The translations under genes and the position numbers were made by a program. A stretch of 64,000 nucleotides of DNA from a virus: IMG/VR virus record IMGVR_UViG_3300049259_000177, positions 50,595-114,594 of that record, one strand, 5' to 3'. Of the stretch, positions 17,862 to 27,236 are shown piece by piece; position 1 is the first letter of the stretch, and the number at the start of each line of letters is the position of its first letter. The notes below the pieces were generated by a model, which ran no database searches, was not told where the DNA came from, and was given only the letters and a program-made list of their open reading frames with translations.

Positions 17862-20800
17862 TTACTCGCTAGCCCTTGACGCGAGGAACGACTTGGTCTC
17901 CGCCGCCCGGCCGCGCAACGCCTCGATGTCGATGGTCTCGCCGTCGCCTGCACCCTTCGTGACGACCGCGCTCGGCGCGTCCGTTGGGGGCGTCGTCAAC
18001 GCATCCGGGTTGGAGTCGCCCGAAGCGTCAATCGAGACACCGGCCGCCTTGAGTACCGCGACGAGATGCTCGACGGCCGCACGCAGCCGCTCCTCGTTCG
18101 CGCCGGACAGCACGCGACCAGCCTTAACCTCGGCTGCGAAGTCGTTGGCGATCTGCACCGACAGCGCAACCTGCTCGATGCTCTTGAGCGCGCCGAGCAC
18201 GAGGTACTGCGGGCCCGGTGACGTTTCGTCCTCGCCGTCGTCCGGTTCGTAGTCGTCGTTCTCGTCGCCGGTGCTGGTCGAGAGCACCTCGGCGGTCACC
18301 TCGATGACGACGGGCAGCGGTGGCCCGAGAGTGACCGAGCCGTCGCCGTTGACGTTGTAGGTCAACTCGTAGGTCTCGCTCTTGCCGTCGTTCGGTCCGC
18401 TGTACGCGCACCGGCGTGCGATGACGCGGTCGTCGTAGGTGCCGACAACCTCGACGTAGTTCCATTCGCGGCGCGGCGGCCCTGCGTCCTCGCCATCACC
18501 GGACGGGATCTCGTCGCCGCGCAGTTGGTCGTTGAGCGTCCGGCGTAGCGCGTCCTGAGTAGCCTCGAACGACCCGGCGAGGAATGGATACTGCTTCGCG
18601 TCGACCGCCATGTCCGCACCTACCGCCTTCGTCGAGGCGTACTCGCCGATCTCCGCCTCGGGCATCCATGTGTCGAGCACGTCACTCGACTGCGGATGCT
18701 CAATCGGCGCCGGTCCGGCCGCGCCGCGCTGGCGCAGTGCGGCGAACGCCTTGGCCTGCTCGCCGTCCATGTGCTTGCCTGCGATCTCGACGGCGCGGTC
18801 GTAGGCGCCGTCCTCGTTCCAGCGGATCAGCGCTGCGCCGCCGCCGCGTTCGTACCACTGCACGAGTTGCTTGGCGCGGCGCTGATCTTCGACAGGGAAT
18901 GCCTTGAACTCCTCGATCGCGTCAAGGTCGTCCTTGGTGACGTTCCACTCCTCCGGCAGCATGTCGACGGCGTCGATGGCGCGCGCGCGGCGGACGATCC
19001 AGCGCTTTACCTTCGGCTTCTCCTCGTCCTTCGCGCGCCCATACGCCTGGATCGCGTTCTTGAGGTCGTCGCGGTTGCCGATCGGATAGGGCTCGCGGTT
19101 GTCGCCAGCAGACACCGGCATCGTCGGCTTGCGGTGACGGCTAGCGGCGGACATCTTCGCGGCGATCAGACCGCCGGTGCCTTCGAGGTCGGGGATCTCG
19201 ATGGTTCCGGCTTCGGCCTCGGCGAGCAGGGCCTTACCGGCGTGCGACTCGGCCTTTTTCTTGTCCCACTCAGCAACGGCGGCACATGCGGCGGCCTGGG
19301 CTTCCTTGCTGACCTTGACCTTGCCGCCGAACGCGCGCCCGGTGGCGCACATCTTTTTGCACCAGTTGACGGCGGTGGCGACGGCGACCGACTCGGGGCG
19401 ACCCTTGTCGATGAGGTGGTGCGCGACCCGGCGCATGAGCATCGGCAGGCCGCCGACTTTCTTCACCCAGTTGTTGCCCTCGCCCAGCGGCGCGCGGGTG
19501 GACGCCGTGCCGGTCGGGTCGAACTTGGCCTCGGTGAGCACGATTGCGACCCAGTCATCGACGTCGGCCAGGATCGGCACGCGCCACTCGTGGCTATCGA
19601 GTGCCTTGACCTCGTCGTCGTCGGCCCACTCCTCGACGCCGACCTCACCGAACGCCTCGGCAAGTGCTTCGGGGGTGATCGAGGGCGCCATCTCGGCCAG
19701 TTCCTTGCGGACGATCTCCGCGACGCGCAGTCCGGCGACGGCATCCTCAACCTCGTCGAGATCGAGACCCTTGAGACCCTCCTCATGCAAGAACCGCTCG
19801 AACGCGGCTTCGACGTCTTCGTGCTCGTCGGCCATCGCGGCGAGCCGTGACTTGACGGCAAGCGTCCCAGATAGCGGCGCCGCGCCGAACAGCACCGGGC
19901 TGTACTCGAACAGTTCGAGTTCCTTGATGTGGCGGATGCCTTCCTTGTCGCGCACGCCCTTGCCGTCGGGCACGTGGTAACCGATCGACCACTCACACTC
20001 GCCGGTCTCGGAGAAGAACTTGACGTTCTCGTACGCGTCGCGGCCCTCGCGACTCTTGAGGTTGAACCGCATGCGCACGTAGAGCGCGCCCGCCGCCTTC
20101 GGCCACGGCTGGCCGTCCTTGGTCTGGTCCGGCAGCCGGGGGTCGCCCGGCATCCACTCTTCGACGGCCTCGGTGCGCGCTACCCAGCGCCCCCAGTCAT
20201 GAGAGTTGCCGGTGAAGTAGACCGACCCGTTGCGCCGGGCCAGCCACGTACCGGACGGAGTGGTCGGGCACCAGACGACGCCGTCGTGCGTCGTGAACAC
20301 GTCCTGTCGGGCGACACGCGGCGGCTTGCCCGTCCGCTTCGCCTCCGCGATTGCGGCCAGTGGCTCGCAGGTGTTCCGGCGCAGCATCGTGACCGTGTTG
20401 CACGGGTTGTCCGGGTAGTGGCGGTTGGTCGAGGTGCGACACGTGTTCGTCGGGATACCGGCAAGGGCGCACGCCATCTCGAAGGCGCGCAGGCCGTGCT
20501 CGCTGCGCTGCGCCCAGCGGGCCGTGCCGCTGGCCTCGACGTGGCCGTCCCCGTCCATGCAGGTGTCGATGAGCAGGTGGAGTTGTGCGGCGGTCAGGGA
20601 GCACAGGAACTCCGGCAACGGGGCATTGCCCTCGCCGAGCACGGCCGCCACGGCCTCCGTCGGTCCCTTGTTGAGCCGGAACTCCATGCCGCGACCGTTG
20701 TTGCAGCGGTGCTCGTGGAAGCCGCCGGGGAACGCGGCGGTCAGCGCGCGGCGGATCGAGGCGCACTTGAGCGGGTTGACCGCGATCGACTGCGCGATTG

Positions 20801-21467
20801 TCAGGCGCGGTGTCGATACCGCGTTGCTCTGCGGGCCGAGGTGTCCCTCGTTCCACGCCCAGGCGACGACCTCGACGAACGCGTCCGACCACTTCGCTTC
20901 AACCGGCGCTTCGGTATTGGCGAGGCTGCGGATGATCCCGTCGTCGGCGTCCAGTTCGCGGGTGGTCCGCCAGGTGATCGCGTAACCGCCATCCGCGCTT
21001 TTGACGCGACGGCGTACCGGCCAGCGGTGGTCGAGCGTGGTTAGCGAGGAGAACCCGCTCGTCTCGATCAGCCGGACCTCGCGCGGTTCGGCGTCGAACA
21101 CATTGACGGCCAGCACCGGCTCGAACCGGGCCGTGAGCGTCTCAGGGTTGAGGGCGTAGGCGCGATCGGCGGCGGTCACCTCGTCGTAGCGGAGCCATCC
21201 GCGCTCGGTGAGGATCTCGGTCGCCTCGTCGGCACAGAAGACGCCCTTGGGCTTGCGCTTCGCCAGCGTCGCCTTGTAGGCGCCTGGAATGATGATGTCG
21301 TTGACTTCGTCCTTGATGCCGGTGACCGACACGAGCGCCTCGACGACGCCCGTCGAGTCGTTAGCAGCAACGAGGTCGGTGGTTGTCGCGTGGCTGGACG
21401 CTTTCTTCTCAAGGCCGGGGGGCGTGGTCGCCTCAGGTGCGTCGAGCACGCTGGTCCCCTGTCCCAC
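17862..21467 (-). CDS. HK97-type prohead protease with intein and long C-terminal extension
   Basis: D.VNDIIIPGAY, F|intein|SHDW, EWSIGY and ELELFEYSPVLFGA motifs; late KAGRVLS..NEERL segment. Confidence 0.9.
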   Translation of the reverse strand: MGQGTSVLDAPEATTPPGLEKKASSHATTTDLVAANDSTGVVEALVSVTGIKDEVNDIIIPGAYKATLAKRKPKGVFCADEATEILTERGWLRYDEVTAADRAYALNPETLTARFEPVLAVNVFDAEPREVRLIETSGFSSLTTLDHRWPVRRRVKSADGGYAITWRTTRELDADDGIIRSLANTEAPVEAKWSDAFVEVVAWAWNEGHLGPQSNAVSTPRLTIAQSIAVNPLKCASIRRALTAAFPGGFHEHRCNNGRGMEFRLNKGPTEAVAAVLGEGNAPLPEFLCSLTAAQLHLLIDTCMDGDGHVEASGTARWAQRSEHGLRAFEMACALAGIPTNTCRTSTNRHYPDNPCNTVTMLRRNTCEPLAAIAEAKRTGKPPRVARQDVFTTHDGVVWCPTTPSGTWLARRNGSVYFTGNSHDWGRWVARTEAVEEWMPGDPRLPDQTKDGQPWPKAAGALYVRMRFNLKSREGRDAYENVKFFSETGECEWSIGYHVPDGKGVRDKEGIRHIKELELFEYSPVLFGAAPLSGTLAVKSRLAAMADEHEDVEAAFERFLHEEGLKGLDLDEVEDAVAGLRVAEIVRKELAEMAPSITPEALAEAFGEVGVEEWADDDEVKALDSHEWRVPILADVDDWVAIVLTEAKFDPTGTASTRAPLGEGNNWVKKVGGLPMLMRRVAHHLIDKGRPESVAVATAVNWCKKMCATGRAFGGKVKVSKEAQAAACAAVAEWDKKKAESHAGKALLAEAEAGTIEIPDLEGTGGLIAAKMSAASRHRKPTMPVSAGDNREPYPIGNRDDLKNAIQAYGRAKDEEKPKVKRWIVRRARAIDAVDMLPEEWNVTKDDLDAIEEFKAFPVEDQRRAKQLVQWYERGGGAALIRWNEDGAYDRAVEIAGKHMDGEQAKAFAALRQRGAAGPAPIEHPQSSDVLDTWMPEAEIGEYASTKAVGADMAVDAKQYPFLAGSFEATQDALRRTLNDQLRGDEIPSGDGEDAGPPRREWNYVEVVGTYDDRVIARRCAYSGPNDGKSETYELTYNVNGDGSVTLGPPLPVVIEVTAEVLSTSTGDENDDYEPDDGEDETSPGPQYLVLGALKSIEQVALSVQIANDFAAEVKAGRVLSGANEERLRAAVEHLVAVLKAAGVSIDASGDSNPDALTTPPTDAPSAVVTKGAGDGETIDIEALRGRAAETKSFLASRASE
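20205..21236 (-). mobile_element. Intein (344 aa) with LAGLIDADG-type endonuclease in the prohead protease
   Basis: Begins CADEATEILTERGW; block B TLDHRW; ends VVWCPTT..GTWLARRNGSVYFTGN|S; AWAWNEG and CMDGDG motifs. Confidence 0.9.
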
Positions 21468-23471: not shown

Positions 23472-23529
23472 GCCGGGTCGCTCTCCCGGCTCGCAAGCGA
23501 GCGTACACCCGCTTAGCGACGTGGCGCAA
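23472..23529 (-). promoter_or_regulatory. Early-type promoter with CGCTAAGCG operator and 5'UTR hairpin
   Basis: TTGCGC-N5-CGCTAAGCGGGTG-TACGCT, then CCGGG-AGAGCGA-CCCGG. Confidence 0.75.
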
Positions 23530-23646
23530 CCGGATCGGGCGGTTGGCCTCCGCTCATTTCCCGATAGGACTGGATGGTGCGAAGGCCACGCTCGACCTCC
23601 TCGCGAGCCCGCCGACGCTTGCGAGCACGAAGCCAGCGACACGCCC

Positions 23647-24300
23647 TCACGTAAGCGACTCCCACTCAACGATCTCGTAGCGGCCAAAGCCCTGCGACCG
23701 GGAGGCGCCGACGCCTTGCTGCTCGCCGGTCAGCCAGAGCATGCCCCACCTGTCGCGGGTGAGTTCCTCGGAGTCGGTGACGACGGTGAACGACACCTTG
23801 GCGTCGGTGACGTACTCCTCGTACTGGATGCCGGTGCCGCGCCAGGTGTGCACGAAGCGCTGGTTGATGCCAGACGCCTCGACGACACCGAGCGGGATCG
23901 TGTCTTCGACGACGAACACGTGCTCGGCGAAGTAGGACAGCGTGCCCTTACGACTCGGCCCCCAGCGGTCCTTAGGCCACCGGACGTTCGCGGCTTCCTT
24001 GATCGCGGCCTTCACCTGACGACCTTCGATGTAGAGCCCGTCGGCGTTGCGCTTGAACCCGTTGAGGTGCTTGAGACTGTCGACCTCGGCGATCGCTTCC
24101 TCGGCGGGGATGCCGCGCTCGGCCATCGTCGTCGCGACCATCTCGCGGATCAGGTCGTCCTTGTCGGCCATCTTCGTGCGTAGCCAACCCTCGGCGACCT
24201 TCGGGTCAGTTGGCACGCCACCGGCGAGCGTCGCGACGAGCAACGTCGCCCGGAAGCGATGCGGGTAAGCCTGCTCGCGCAGGTCATCGAACAGGGACAT
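23647..24300 (-). CDS. Stand-alone RAMP/Cas7-like RNA-binding protein (217 aa)
   Basis: ACAGGAG RBS at 24309-24315. Has F.ATL.....LAGGVP, YIEGRQVKAAIKEAA and a C-terminal Gly-rich loop GVGASRSQGFGRY, all RAMP hallmarks. Confidence 0.8.
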   Translation of the reverse strand: MSLFDDLREQAYPHRFRATLLVATLAGGVPTDPKVAEGWLRTKMADKDDLIREMVATTMAERGIPAEEAIAEVDSLKHLNGFKRNADGLYIEGRQVKAAIKEAANVRWPKDRWGPSRKGTLSYFAEHVFVVEDTIPLGVVEASGINQRFVHTWRGTGIQYEEYVTDAKVSFTVVTDSEELTRDRWGMLWLTGEQQGVGASRSQGFGRYEIVEWESLT

Positions 24301-24317
24301 CGTGGCGGCTCCTGTGG

Positions 24318-24638
24318 CTAGTCGGATGGGATGGGGAGGGCGGCCGAGGCGTGGGTGGGGGAGTCGGGCCGAGGCGGGCTGGGGTCGGCGGGGCAGGGGT
24401 GGGTCGGGAAGTCGGGCTGGGGCTGGGGAGACACGGGAAGTCGGGCTGGGTGGGGTCGGGAAGACGTGCGGTGCAGCGGGCAGGCATGGGTGGTCGGAGC
24501 GGGAGAGGGACGGGCTGGCGAGGAACGGGTAGGCGCGGGCAGACCTGGGTGGTCGGACGCGGAGAGGGCCGAATAGGGCGGGGTCGGGAAGGCATGTCGG
24601 AGTGGGAAGGGCGGGGAAGCCTAGCCTTGGGAAGTCAG
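24318..24638 (-). ncRNA. Pentamer-periodic guide-like repeat array (CC-NNN units punctuated by CCGAC), 7 units
   Basis: Eight CCGAC/CTGAC-NNN delimiters (plus-strand starts 24318, 24360, 24408, 24437, 24490, 24549, 24593, 24631) enclose 51 near-pentamers. By manual count 40 end in GG on the plus strand. Confidence 0.8.
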
Positions 24639-25165
24639 GCGGCCTTGCCGACGATGCTGCGGTACATCGCGTCGTACTCCTCCTCGGTAAACACCTCCTC
24701 GGTGCGTCGGTCTCCGACGCGCTTGGCGACTGCCTTGTGGAACGCCTCGCGCATCTTCGCGACCGCTGCCGTCTCGTGATAGCGGCTGGCGACGTACATG
24801 TGGTCCGCACCGGTCATGTCGCCGACGCGGCGCCTCGTTCCGCCGTCGTCGATGGCGTAGACGACAGCGAAGTGGCTGAGCGCAGCGAGGTCACCACTGC
24901 CGACCGCGTCCGCGAAGGCACGTGGCTGCCGCCGGGCGAGAGCGGTCGAGCGGTCGTGGCGTAGCGCCAGCGAGAGATCCGACGTCAGGTAGCGGGCGGC
25001 ATTGTCGGTCAGCCACGCCGTCAGTACCTCCGGGTTGCTGGCGCGGAGATCTCGGATGGCCTAGTCAGCCACGACGGCAGGCACGAAGTCGCCATCCGGG
25101 CGGGCGGCGTCGATTGCTGCCTGGATCGCGGGTGGGAACATGCCGTCTCCGTTCGGGGCGTTCAT
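24635..25165 (-). pseudogene. Accessory gene of the RAMP locus (176 codons) with an in-frame amber at 25061-25063
   Basis: ATG 25165 lies 6 nt after TAGTGT (leaderless -10). Reads MNAPNGDGMFPPAIQAAIDAARPDGDFVPAVVAD*AIRDLRASNPEVLTAWL... and stays open to TGA 24635, which overlaps the first array delimiter. Confidence 0.7.
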
Positions 25166-25259
25166 GCGACGACACTAAGCGCGTGTGCGCCACGCCTAGC
25201 GCTTCACGTGCGGGCGTGTCGACCGGACAGGTGGTCGGGCACGCCCGCGCGTGATGGGC

Positions 25260-27162
25260 TCACACGGCTCGGAGGTTGCCCCGACGGCCCGTTGCCGGGC
25301 GTGAGGCGCTCTCCTGCCAGTCCTCGGCGAGCGGGCCGGGGTCCAGCACCTTGCGAGCACGAGTAACGGCGACGTAGCGCAGCCGCAGTTCTTCCGGTGA
25401 CGGTTCCTTGACCTCGCCGTCCTTGCCGGGCTTGGCCTCGAAGTCGTCGCCGATGCGGACGTTCTCCCACTCCCTGCCCTTCGCTTTGTGCGCGGTGGAG
25501 ACGATCAGCGTGGCCGACGCCTCGGTGACGGCGCCGTCGAGCACGCCGAGCAGAGTCGGGCAGGAGAACTCGTTGATGAGCCGGACGAGGACCGCGAGGT
25601 CACTGCCGTCCGGGTCGCTGTCGACGTACTCCTCGACCATCGACCACGAGGTGAACAGGCTCAACTCGGGGAACGTCGTCGAGCCGTTGTCGATCAACTC
25701 CTGCGCGCCACGGATGAAGGCGCTCATCTGCTTGCCGCCGCCGACGAGGTGCACCGACGTGCCGTCGCGCTGCGCGTCGAGCGCGACCTTGAGGGCGCCC
25801 GCGTTGGTCCGGCACAGCACCGCGTCCGGCTTGTCGAGCGCGGCGACGGTGGAGAGGATCTGCGTGGTGCCCTTGATTCGCAGCGGGGTGTCCAACTGCG
25901 ACAGGAAGCGGTTGGCCTCGGTGGCGATCGCCGGGCCGAAGCGGAACGACTGCGAGAGGTAGAGCACCTCGACGCCGGGCTCGCGGGAGAAGATCCCCAT
26001 CGCGTCGATCGCGCCGCGCCACTCGTAGATGGCCTGGGCGCGGTCGCCGACGAAGACGCGCTGGCAGTGGGTCTGGCGGGCGACAACGCTCGCGATGACC
26101 GGGTCGGCGTCCTGCGCCTCGTCGAACAGGATGAAGTCGACGTCGAGGCGCGGGTTGCTCAACTGCCACATCTCCCTGCGACTCGGCGCGGCGACGGATG
26201 CCGAGCGTGTTGCCCTGCGTGCGCGTACGCCAGGTGGTCCGTCCGATCCGGTAGTCGTCCCCCCGTCGGGCGAGGTACACGACGTGGTTGCCGTCGGTCA
26301 GGTCGGCGTCGAGGCGCACCACGCACCGGTGTTCGGCCGTGTATGCGCTCGTGCGCCCGCGAGAGGTCGTCGCCCGCACGAGATCGCCGTCGTAGTGGCG
26401 CTGGCCGACCGCTGTGACCTTGCGGCCCTGACGGCGGATGGAACCGAGCCTGCTCGCAGCCGGGGTCCACGACATCACGTAGTCGCCTTCGCGGAGCGTC
26501 TCGATGGGCACCTCCTCGAACGACGAGCCGAGGTGGCCGCCACGGCTCACCACGCGGCGTACGAGCGTCCCGGTGGGCTGGCAGTCGTGTTGGAAGCGCA
26601 GTTGACCGTCGGTGTCGTTCAGGTCGGCCCACGCCTTGCGGGCGAACGGGACAAGGTGGCGGGCGAGTTCGCGGTGGTTGGCGCCACGACGTTTGGTGAC
26701 CTCGCCTTCGAGGCCCTCGATGAATGGCATGTGCGTGACGTCGATCTCGCGGTCGGCGGAGGAGCAGAACCGGGCGACCATCTGCATCGTGTAACGGGCG
26801 AGCACGTCCTTGGTGACGGTCTTCTCGCCGACCCGGATGCCCTCGTTGATGCCGATGATCTTCGCGGCTTGCCAGGCAGGGACGCGGGCGTTGGAGCGCA
26901 GCCGATGGGCGTAGGTGCGGCCGACTGCCTTCATCGCGTAGGAGTGGGCCGTCCCGCAGACCATGTTCGAGGGGAAGGTCTGCTTCGCCTCACCGGCGAT
27001 CGCGGCGTTGTAGGCGATGTACATGCCTCGGCGGCTCGGGGTAGCGCTCGCCATCAGTTTCAGTGTCGAGGTCTTTCCGGTGCCTGCACCGGCCTCCACG
27101 ACGATGTTCTTGCGAGCGCGGAAGGCATCAACGATGGCCTGCTGCTCGGTGGTCGGGTTCAT
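25260..27162 (-). pseudogene. UvrD/Rep-like SF1 helicase split by a truncated intein and a frameshift
   Basis: N-part: PTTEQQAI, AGAGTGKT, TAHS. C-part, in another frame: ILFDEAQD, VGD.AQAIYEWRGA, LSQSFRFG, STAHKAKGREW, YVAVTRA. Confidence 0.85.
26172..26583 (-). mobile_element. N-terminal fragment of an intein (C-terminal half missing)
   Basis: HD|CQPTGTLV...VPIETLREGDYVMSW...YTAEHRC (blocks A and B). No terminal HN; the frame breaks at 26172. Confidence 0.8.
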
Positions 27163-27180
27163 TGCCCTGTCTCCTGTCCG

Positions 27181-27236
27181 GCGGGTCGCTCTCCCGCACA
27201 ACCAAGACCGTACACCCGCTTAGCGTGAGAGCGCAA
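27181..27236 (-). promoter_or_regulatory. Early-type promoter with operator and hairpin (UvrD)
   Basis: TTGCGC-N5-CGCTAAGCGGGTG-TACGGT, then GCGGG-AGAGCGA-CCCGC. Confidence 0.75.

What the first reader, a model, noticed from the sequence alone, without database searches (positions are those of the whole stretch)
23647..25165. Phage-encoded lone Cas7/RAMP-like protein with a pentamer-periodic RNA array: candidate gapped-guide targeting system
Seen: a three-part operon on the minus strand. A leaderless accessory gene (25165-24635) is followed by a 321-nt non-coding array (24638-24318) and then a 217-aa gene with RAMP hallmarks (YIEGRQVKAAIKEAA; Gly-rich loop GVGASRSQGFGRY). On the sense strand the array is CCGAC-NNN-(CC-NNN)n, repeated 7 times, with units of 38, 44, 59, 53, 29, 48 and 42 nt. 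By manual count 40 of 51 pentamers keep the CC exactly and 10 more keep its second C. There are no CRISPR repeats and no cas1/2/3/5/6 in the window. Established: Cas7-type RAMPs polymerise along guide RNA with a fixed nucleotide step. Inference: one subunit binds each pentamer, the constant CC is the protein handle, the variable bases are displayed for pairing, and CCGAC marks guide boundaries. From memory this resembles the recently reported VIPR (GGY/NN) systems, but here the sense strand is C-rich with CCGAC punctuation, so it may be a distinct variant.
Basis: partly seen in the sequence, partly recalled or inferred. Interest (0 to 1): 0.97.

Follow-up and report, generated by a model that had tools for sequence, protein, structure and literature searches.

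The report
Phage VIPR system, C-rich guide array
This 115-kb actinobacterial phage carries a divergent member of the VIPR systems first described in 2026: a lone Cas7-like protein plus an array of five-base-stepped guides, written on the C-rich strand, two of which spell the catalytic motifs of the integrases of rival mobile elements.

Summary
A 217-aa gene (23647-24300, minus) is preceded by a 320-nt non-coding array, about 55% C, with a 5-nt lattice and 11 CCGAC punctuation marks. An accessory gene lies upstream.

The protein has a Cas7/Csm3 fold. Its family profile matches the SUSP1 Vipr family (hhalign 90%, E 1.6e-6). The array grammar [N N c C C]n, with CC|GAC|TWCCC punctuation and unit length 5n+3, recurs next to more than 50 homologs.

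Under the published skip-one-base rule, guide U3 spells ETLDTYAHLW, the catalytic tyrosine motif of tyrosine integrases. It has 18 hits in 401 actinomycete genomes against 0 for the reversed control. Guide U10 spells IIDREVWD of large serine recombinases, with 30 hits against 7 for the control.

So this is a VIPR system, a kind published in 2026, from a clade that departs from the characterised type II. The fixed bases are C on the vipr strand, the guanine-reading residues are replaced, and there is no structured tail. I had no RNA data. I favour the C-rich sense strand as the guide (about 65%) over the G-rich antisense strand.

In this phage the accessory gene carries an in-frame TAG, and many units are too short to guide. 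This scan has found the same clade on other DNA before.

The parts
23647..24300 (-). vipr: 217-aa RAMP/Cas7-fold protein with G-loop GVGASRSQGFGRY
   Evidence: ORF. AF2 model pLDDT 76. Foldseek top hits are Csm3/Cas7, E 1e-6. VIA Z 10.1 to type VII Cas7 and 9.1 to Csm3. Family profile vs SUSP1 Vipr family: hhalign 90%, E 1.6e-6. 1452 homologs.
24301..24323 (-). short leader with the Shine-Dalgarno sequence (AGGAG) between the last CCGAC and the vipr ATG
   Evidence: Sequence. In 24 homolog loci the last punctuation lies a median of 25 nt before the vipr start.
24321..24640 (-). guide array: pentamer lattice [N N c C C] with 11 CCGAC punctuation marks. The first C of each is at 24600, 24587, 24556, 24497, 24459, 24444, 24415, 24407, 24388, 24367 and 24325.
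   Evidence: The same grammar appears in 844 units from about 65 loci, with unit length mostly 5n+3. No Rfam family matches.
24496..24554 (-). guide U3 (11 pentamers). Its NN bases read with a 1-nt skip give CAnAGnTGnGCnTAnGTnTCnAGnGTnTC. The reverse complement encodes ETLDTYAHLW.
   Evidence: Exact 20/20 match in a tyrosine integrase of IMG/VR contig L076. 18 hits with at most 2 mismatches in 401 Actinomycetes genomes, 0 for the backwards control. All 13 hits checked are in frame in LGH..ETLDTY.HLWPD. 5 of 5 are PF00589.
24324..24365 (-). guide U10 (8 pentamers). Its NN bases give TCnCAnACnTCnCGnTCnATnAT. The reverse complement encodes IIDREVWD.
   Evidence: 30 exact hits in IMG/VR, 23 of them in long ORFs with the shared flanks GEH.AIIDREVWDKVH. 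8 of 8 tested are large serine recombinases, PF00239+PF07508+PF13408. The backwards control gives 7 hits.
24458..24495 (-). guide U4 (7 pentamers). Target not established.
   Evidence: The 14 specified bases give mostly chance hits. Two high-GC hits read NVVAQIW.GKQ. This is only a lead.
24635..25165 (-). vap-like accessory gene, interrupted by an in-frame TAG at 25063-25061. The part after the TAG (24638-25060) is the conserved domain.
   Evidence: Homologs lie upstream of array plus vipr on the same strand in about 33 loci. AF2 model pLDDT 86, helical, with no PDB or Pfam match. The phage has no tRNA.
25172..25177 (-). -10-like hexamer TAGTGT, 6 nt upstream of the accessory gene's ATG (possible leaderless start)
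   Evidence: Read from the sequence. This is inference only. The consensus scan found no sigma-70-type promoter or terminator on either strand.

Best explanation
The locus is a VIPR-type RNA-guided DNA-recognition system from a divergent, mainly actinobacterial clade. It sits in a phage record of 114.6 kb that is about 88% complete.

Proposed mechanism, with what is inferred marked:
- A transcript starting upstream of the accessory gene runs through the array into vipr (inferred).
- The array is cut at the CCGA|C marks, perhaps by host RNase E, which in mycobacteria cuts C-rich single strands at RR|CNU (inferred).
- Each Vipr subunit holds the fixed y-C-C of one pentamer and presents the two free bases (by homology to SUSP1 Vipr).
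- The free dinucleotides pair with DNA while skipping every third base, so a guide reads codon positions 1-2 of a conserved protein motif whatever the wobble base is (supported here by target decoding).

The two longest guides aim at the catalytic-tyrosine motif of tyrosine integrases and at a conserved motif of the recombinase domain of large serine recombinases. The phage record itself has neither gene. The likely role is to silence integration or excision of resident prophages, satellites or integrative elements that compete with this phage.

This copy looks partly decayed: the accessory gene has an amber stop, and half the units have only 1-4 pentamers.

The confidence given (0.85) is for the locus being a VIPR-type guide system. 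The sub-claim that the guide RNA is the C-rich sense strand stands at about 0.65.
For: Protein and homology:
- RAMP fold.
- Homology to the experimentally characterised Vipr family (SUSP1 Vipr is PDB 36pp).
- No cas genes and no CRISPR array. Only weak G-loop matches to Csm4/Cas6 models.

Array:
- The grammar is conserved next to homologs from 75% down to 25% identity, in phages of 41-73% GC.
- Unit lengths are quantised as 5n+3.
- NN composition fits codon positions 1-2 better than the other two frames.

Targets:
- U3: 18 hits vs 0 for the control, all in tyrosine integrases and in frame.
- U10: 30 hits vs 7 for the control, 23 in one recombinase motif.
- No tyrosine integrase or large serine recombinase domain in the phage record. 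No match to U3 in the phage's own genome with up to 3 mismatches.

For the sense (C-rich) strand as the RNA:
- In 80 type II loci, all 206 lattice runs are co-oriented with vipr. In this family, 152 of 159 put C on the vipr strand.
- The array fills the whole vap-vipr spacer and leaves no room for its own promoter or terminator.
- In L070 a C-array sits 4 nt after an ASRSQ-type vipr and 9 nt before a G-array, in a single same-strand cluster that also holds a WRPR-type vipr.
- The SUSP1 residues that read the two guanines (D177, W178, R138) align to A, S/T and E here, while R179 is kept.
- GA|C fits the mycobacterial RNase E preference (PMC10641625).
Against: - There is no RNA evidence of any kind.
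- All published vrRNAs are G-anchored. Read on the other strand, this array is GG(g)NN, close to the NNNGG variant named in the preprint's methods.
- L052, L053 and L063 carry arrays in both orientations around vipr, so arrays can be transcribed on their own.
- A long C-rich, G-poor untranslated RNA should attract Rho (general knowledge).
- The residue mapping rests on a 90%-probability profile alignment, not on a structure.
- The accessory gene here is broken, and only 3-5 of the 11 units are long enough to be specific.
- Silencing, binding and processing are all inferred.
Confidence: 0.85

Rival explanations
1. Same system, but the functional guide is the G-rich strand, transcribed antisense to vap and vipr. 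On that strand it reads GG(g)NN pentamers ending in GGGWA-GTCGG, a relaxed form of the canonical GGY/NN with a short conserved 3' end.
For: - Every characterised vrRNA is G-anchored, with the repeats preceding a conserved 3' part.
- The preprint lists NNNGG-type variants.
- In L052/L053, read on the G strand, each array ends in a hairpin, and one array follows a co-directional gene directly.
- The predicted dsDNA targets are identical for either strand, so the integrase matches do not discriminate.
Against: - It needs a promoter inside the first codons of vipr and termination inside vap, because the array fills the spacer.
- It would invert the strict co-orientation seen in 206 of 206 type II arrays.
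- The third fixed base would be a purine, which the SUSP1 pocket excludes.
- The guanine-reading residues are not conserved.
- The L070 C-array is wedged between same-strand elements with gaps of 4 and 9 nt.
Confidence: 0.3
2. The locus in this particular phage is a decaying remnant. The family is a real VIPR clade, but here the accessory gene is a pseudogene and the array has eroded, so the system may no longer act.
For: - In-frame TAG in vap and no suppressor tRNA.
- Units of 8-21 nt make up half the array, whereas the family mode is 33-48 nt.
- The array has 11 units, against 13-49 in many relatives.
Against: - vipr itself is intact and all family-invariant residues are present.
- U3 keeps a perfect 20/20 match to a natural integrase, and U10 keeps perfect 16/16 matches.
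- In the E. coli system vipr plus vrRNA suffice for repression, and vap only enhances it.
- The TAG could be a sequencing error in a metagenome-derived record.
Confidence: 0.2
3. The C-rich tract is not a guide array but a regulatory spacer, for example a Rho-loading or attenuation region between two genes. Under this reading the pentamer pattern and the integrase matches are incidental.
For: C-rich, G-poor, unstructured RNA is what Rho binds (general knowledge). No RNA family matches.
Against: - Quantised 5n+3 units and position-specific conservation across about 65 loci.
- The free positions are near-uniform, while the fixed ones are 90-100% C.
- Two guides hit single gene families in frame, far above reversed controls.
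- The tract is always beside a Vipr homolog.
Confidence: 0.03

Closest known systems
Type II VIPR of Escherichia phage SUSP1 and a Pseudomonas fulva prophage (Vipr + vap1 + vrRNAs; bioRxiv 10.64898/2026.04.26.720920 and 10.64898/2026.04.26.720927; PDB 36pp)
   Same: - A lone small RAMP protein with RRM core, thumb and G-loop, and a detectable profile match.
- A two-gene phage locus with no cas genes.
- 5-nt repeats made of a fixed block plus two free bases.
- Targets read with a 1-nt skip falling on wobble positions of genes of rival mobile elements.
   Different: - The fixed bases are y-C-C on the vipr strand instead of G-G-Y.
- D177, W178 and R138 align to A, S/T and E.
- There is no per-guide promoter, leader hairpin or structured 3' tail (compare). 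Instead there is a continuous array with an 8-nt punctuation, embedded between vap and vipr.
- The vap here is an unrelated helical protein with no known fold.
- Guides are 6-9 pentamers in the family, against 9-16 in type II.
Other VIPR types and non-canonical 5-mer arrays. These include staggered arrays and the NNNGG, YNNNG and NNNNG repeats in 10.64898/2026.04.26.720920, and 21 clusters with GAC/NN, CAC/NN, WGT/NN or TGH/NN in 10.64898/2026.10.21.760802.
   Same: Divergent Vipr-like folds beside 5-nt arrays whose fixed block is not GGY. Abutting guides, where the end of one marks the start of the next.
   Different: I could not see the figures or tables, so I cannot say whether this clade is among them. 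No text I could read names a C-anchored motif, CCGAC punctuation or 5n+3 units.
Cas7 backbone subunits of class 1 CRISPR effectors (Csm3, Cmr4, type VII Cas7)
   Same: Best structural matches. One subunit per fixed step of guide RNA, with a thumb that disrupts pairing periodically (established for Cas7).
   Different: There is no CRISPR array, no Cas5/Cas6/Cas10/Cas1/Cas2, and no sequence-level family membership. The step is 5 nt with 2 paired bases rather than 6 nt with 5 paired.

Membership tests
VIPR (Vipr + vrRNA) | Small stand-alone RAMP protein with RRM core, thumb and glycine-rich loop | tested here: met
   AF2 model. Foldseek hits to Csm3/Cas7 at E 1e-6 and VIA Z 8-10 over residues 9-217. 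The G-loop GxGA[ST]RSQG.G is invariant in the family.
VIPR (Vipr + vrRNA) | Sequence homology to an experimentally characterised Vipr | tested here: met
   Profile of 49 family members vs profile of 28 SUSP1-type Viprs: hhalign probability 90%, E 1.6e-6, 129 collinear columns from helix 1 to the G-loop. The single-sequence comparison was weak (E 0.046).
VIPR (Vipr + vrRNA) | Minimal locus (vipr plus an accessory gene, long non-coding flanks), mostly in viruses, with no CRISPR or cas genes | tested here: met
   The vap-like gene is conserved in about 33 loci. The neighbouring UvrD-like helicase is not conserved with it.
VIPR (Vipr + vrRNA) | Tandem 5-nt repeats with a fixed block and two hypervariable bases | tested here: met
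   Position-specific counts over 844 units. Window lattice vs shifted lattices.
VIPR (Vipr + vrRNA) | Fixed block is GGY on the strand of the vipr gene | tested here: not met
   On the vipr strand the block is y-C-C. Counts are 152 C-runs vs 7 G-runs in this family, against 206 G-runs vs 0 C-runs in 80 type II loci. The opposite strand reads GG(g), with a purine at position 3.
VIPR (Vipr + vrRNA) | Guanine-reading residues of SUSP1 Vipr (H17, D177, R138, W178) | tested here: not met
   D177, W178 and R138 align to A199, S200 and E161. R179 aligns to R201, which is conserved. H17 is not alignable. This rests on alignment, not on a structure.
VIPR (Vipr + vrRNA) | Conserved structured 3' tail after each repeat tract | tested here: not met
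   Units abut with only an 8-nt GAC-TWCCC punctuation. No Rfam hit. Some relatives have one hairpin per array.
VIPR (Vipr + vrRNA) | Non-contiguous 1-nt-skip recognition of targets in competing mobile elements | tested here: met
   By computation only. U3 matches tyrosine integrases, 18 hits vs 0 for the control. U10 matches serine recombinases, 30 hits vs 7 for the control. The skip base falls on the wobble position in all hits checked.
VIPR (Vipr + vrRNA) | vrRNA is expressed, processed and bound by Vipr, and represses its target | not testable with these tools
No tool was available to model a protein-RNA complex.
CRISPR-Cas class 1 (Cas7 family) | CRISPR repeat-spacer array and partner cas genes (Cas5, Cas6, large subunit, Cas1/2) | tested here: not met
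   None found around the locus or in the family's loci. Only the fold is shared.

The most novel reading that the evidence does not exclude
This clade uses a second VIPR alphabet. The guide is the C-rich RNA co-transcribed with vipr. Its y-C-C anchors are read by a remodelled G-loop (GASRSQG) and thumb (IQYEEY) in place of the guanine-reading D-W and R of type II. The guides are released from an operon-embedded array at GA|C sites by a host nuclease. L070 would then be a phage running a G-type and a C-type VIPR side by side without cross-talk.
Probability: 0.6. Interest if true: 0.75.

Novelty: new variant of a known kind. Interest (0 to 1): 0.6.

Why it matters
VIPR is months old, and only G-anchored type II systems have been tested.

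If the C-anchored reading holds, the RNA-anchoring code of Vipr proteins is itself evolvable. Two orthogonal protein-RNA pairs would then be available for programmable DNA binding, and there would be a natural test case for how RAMP G-loops and thumbs specify bases.

Whichever strand is used, the decoded guides show a clear strategy. By reading only codon positions 1-2, a 20-base guide targets the invariant catalytic motifs of both integrase superfamilies across many unrelated elements. This fits a lytic phage disarming resident prophages or satellites.

The finding is not a new kind of system, and this scan has already met the same clade several times on other DNA.

Tried and rejected
- Sequence family searches for Vipr and vap (Pfam, PHROGs, NCBIfam, PADLOC, PDB sequences) gave nothing, or only weak G-loop matches.
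- A megablast of the locus against phage records found nothing. tblastn found one isolate, 'Microcystis phage Mae-JY09'.
- Global 5-nt Fourier power over 150-nt windows missed the arrays, because the phase shifts by 3 nt at every punctuation. Anchoring the lattice at CCGAC solved this.
- Consensus promoter and terminator scans were uninformative on both strands, in the window and in the low-GC relatives L069 and L071.
- Hairpins at array ends in L052/L053 fit either strand.
- The RNase E argument also fits either strand partly, since the G strand has a single C in GU|CGG.
- Mismatch asymmetry between U3 and near-matching integrases reflects amino-acid variation (A/G/S), not wobble pairing, so it cannot reveal the RNA strand.
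- Guide orientation relative to target genes is only mildly biased, 126 vs 93.
- No self-target for U3 in the phage genome.
- U4 (14 specified bases) gave mostly chance hits.
- No other well-formed guide in the collected arrays spells the TLDTY motif.
- The vap model has no PDB match at E <= 0.001.
- The UvrD-like helicase upstream is not part of the system.
So there was no read evidence, and I could not look at actinobacterial type II loci by protein id.
- The supplementary tables of the VIPR preprint are not held, so I could not check whether this clade already has a type number.
Full report
WHAT IS THERE. The window is the right-hand 64 kb of a single 114,594-bp virus record with 68% GC. 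CheckV estimates it is 88% complete, and it encodes no tRNA. On the minus strand lie, in order:
- a UvrD-like helicase split over two frames (25260-27201);
- a 177-codon accessory reading frame (25165-24635);
- a C-rich non-coding tract;
- a 217-aa gene (24300-23647).

The accessory frame is interrupted by an in-frame TAG at 25063-25061. After it there is no ATG, GTG or TTG for 81 codons. Homologs are continuous across this point. In this record the accessory gene is therefore broken, mis-sequenced, or started unconventionally.

THE ARRAY. The tract is 55% C and 18% G. It carries 11 CCGAC, against 1.3 expected and at most 6 in 2000 shuffles. With a 5-nt lattice anchored at each CCGAC, 41 of 46 pentamers have C at position 5 and 27 have CC at positions 4-5. 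Shifted lattices give 17-23 and 7-14.

THE PROTEIN. No sequence library names it. It has 1452 relatives at E <= 1e-3 in the 90%-identity collection and 580 cluster representatives at 50%. Where a source names them, they are actinobacterial. An AlphaFold2 model (pLDDT 76) matches Csm3/Cas7 subunits first: Foldseek E 1e-6, and VIA Z 10.1 to type VII Cas7 and 9.1 to Csm3.

I located the VIPR locus of Escherichia phage SUSP1. Its vipr is L013 28474-29061, minus strand, and is identical to PDB 36pp. Its YNNGG arrays lie on the same strand as vipr. I then built profiles of both families. They align with 90% probability (E 1.6e-6) over 129 columns, from RRM helix 1 to the G-loop. Homology to bona fide Vipr is therefore supported, though distant.

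THE ARRAY IS A FAMILY TRAIT. In 11 of the first 12 homolog loci, and then in most of 60 more, the gene is preceded (sometimes followed) by a tract of about 50% C with 5-49 CCGAC and almost no GTCGG.

From 844 units the grammar on the vipr strand is CC|GAC|T-W-c-C-C, then [N N c C C]n. Position 5 is 90-100% C, position 4 is 45-95%, position 3 is 30-70%, and positions 1-2 are near-uniform. Unit lengths peak at 33, 38, 43 and 48, that is 5n+3.

A vap homolog lies upstream on the same strand in about 33 loci. In 24 loci with the order vap-array-vipr, the array fills the spacer. The first punctuation lies a median of 38 nt after the vap stop, and in several loci the stop codon is part of it. The last punctuation lies a median of 25 nt before the vipr start.

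Relatives at only 25-31% identity keep the G-loop GxGA[ST]RSQG. They also keep a C-lattice on the vipr strand in phages of 41-52% GC, with other punctuation: GTGAC in L071, TTGCAAC in L069, and a single GAC-led guide in L066. The C-richness is therefore not a by-product of high GC.

THE GUIDES DECODE. I applied the published rule, in which the two free bases pair and one target base is skipped.

Guide U3 (24554-24496) gives CAnAGnTGnGCnTAnGTnTCnAGnGTnTC. Its reverse complement reads ETLDTYAHLW. One IMG/VR contig of 69% GC carries a perfect 20/20 match at exactly that peptide of a tyrosine integrase. In 401 Actinomycetes genomes the pattern has 18 hits with at most 2 mismatches, and the tool's backwards control has none. 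All 13 hits I inspected are in frame in LGH..ETLDTY.HLWPD, with the skipped base at the wobble position, and 5 of 5 are PF00589.

Guide U10 (24365-24324) gives TCnCAnACnTCnCGnTCnATnAT, which reads IIDREVWD. It has 30 exact hits in IMG/VR, against 7 for the backwards pattern. Of these, 23 lie in long ORFs sharing the flanks GEH.AIIDREVWDKVH. All 8 tested are large serine recombinases, and the site lies at the end of the PF07508 domain.

Across 219 well-formed guides from all loci, the free dinucleotides fit codon positions 1-2 of phage genes better than the other frames, with a mild excess of guides antisense to the target gene.

The phage record has neither integrase family, and its genome has no match to U3. 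U4 gave no clear target.

The picture matches what the VIPR papers report for E. coli and Pseudomonas, namely guides against rival prophages and satellites (abstract of 10.64898/2026.10.15.759431).

WHICH STRAND IS THE RNA? This is the open point, and I had no read data. The predicted double-stranded targets are the same either way.

For the C-rich sense strand:
- Strict co-orientation of arrays with vipr where the strand is known: 206 of 206 runs in 80 type II loci. The corresponding count in this family is 152 of 159 with C on the vipr strand.
- There is no room for an independent promoter or terminator. A -10-like TAGTGT lies 6 nt before the accessory ATG.
- In the L070 cluster, a WRPR-type Vipr with G-arrays and an ASRSQ-type Vipr with a C-array share one tightly packed same-strand block.
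- SUSP1 D177, W178 and R138, which read G1 and G2, are replaced by A, S/T and E, while R179 is kept.
- GA|C matches the RR|CNU preference of mycobacterial RNase E for C-rich single strands (PMC10641625).

For the G-rich antisense strand:
- All tested vrRNAs are G-anchored.
- The preprint mentions NNNGG-type variants.
- Three loci have arrays in both orientations.
- A long C-rich untranslated RNA should be a Rho substrate.

I put the sense strand at about 65%.

COMPARISON AND NOVELTY. The system works like VIPR and is homologous to it. Three features of the characterised type II are not met: GGY on the vipr strand, the guanine-reading residues, and a structured tail per guide.

Non-canonical 5-mer VIPR arrays and abutting ('staggered') arrays have been reported in general terms. 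I could not see the figures or tables, so this clade may already carry a type number. I therefore call it a new variant of a known kind.

Earlier agents of this scan reached similar readings for relatives on other DNA. I took from them the lead that guides may spell integrase motifs, and tested it on this window's own guides.

LIMITS. Transcription, processing at CCGAC, protein binding and silencing are all inferred. The residue mapping depends on a distant profile alignment. In this copy the accessory gene is broken and half the units are very short, so it may be only partly functional.

Noticed in passing
window 25061-25063 (minus strand): An in-frame TAG splits the vap-like gene into 34 and 141 codons. 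Homologs are continuous here, and the phage record has no tRNA or suppressor. It may be a pseudogene, a sequencing error or an unusual start.
   Followed up: partly
window 25260-27201 (minus strand): A UvrD-like helicase is split over two overlapping frames: N-terminal AAA/UvrD part at 25600-27201, C-terminal part at 25260-26171. An inserted stretch begins CQPTGTLV, which looks intein-like. This could be a frameshift or an intein. The helicase is not conserved next to vipr in other loci.
   Followed up: partly
window 17862-21467 (minus strand): A 1201-aa ORF with a prohead protease S78 domain and what looks like an intein-type insertion near the N-terminus (CADEATEILTERGW...). The VIPR island and the helicase sit directly beside this head-module gene.
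   Followed up: no
L070 2345-4850 (IMGVR_UViG_3300033150_000513): One same-strand cluster holds two Vipr paralogs. One is 191 aa with G-loop GRWRPR, the other is 220 aa with GASRSQG. The cluster has five GGC/NN arrays and one C-lattice array, which lies 4 nt after the second gene. This is a natural pair of G-type and C-type systems.
   Followed up: partly
L052 1951-4420 and L053 3630-5560: Relatives at 46% identity have the order array(inverted)-vipr-vap-array. A conserved hairpin sits at the vipr-proximal end of each array. A palindrome GCACG-N3-CGTGC lies in the 140-170-nt spacer before vipr and may be an operator.
   Followed up: partly
L074 (PP395641.1, 'Microcystis phage Mae-JY09') 3932-5080: This is the only isolate in the phage collection with this Vipr clade. 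The stretch fetched from it (L074) has 73% GC, which is unusual for a Microcystis phage. It carries a CCGAC-punctuated array downstream of the gene, followed by a perfect 14-bp hairpin.
   Followed up: no
window 23513-23665 (minus strand): A 50-aa arginine-rich ORF overlaps the last 19 nt of vipr. It has no family match and no homologs in the collected loci.
   Followed up: partly
window 24458-24495: Guide U4 decodes to [KN]VVA[HQ][IM][CW]. Two high-GC viral contigs (L306, L270) carry NVVAQIW.GKQ.L at the match, which may be a third conserved target motif. The other 118 hits look random.
   Followed up: partly
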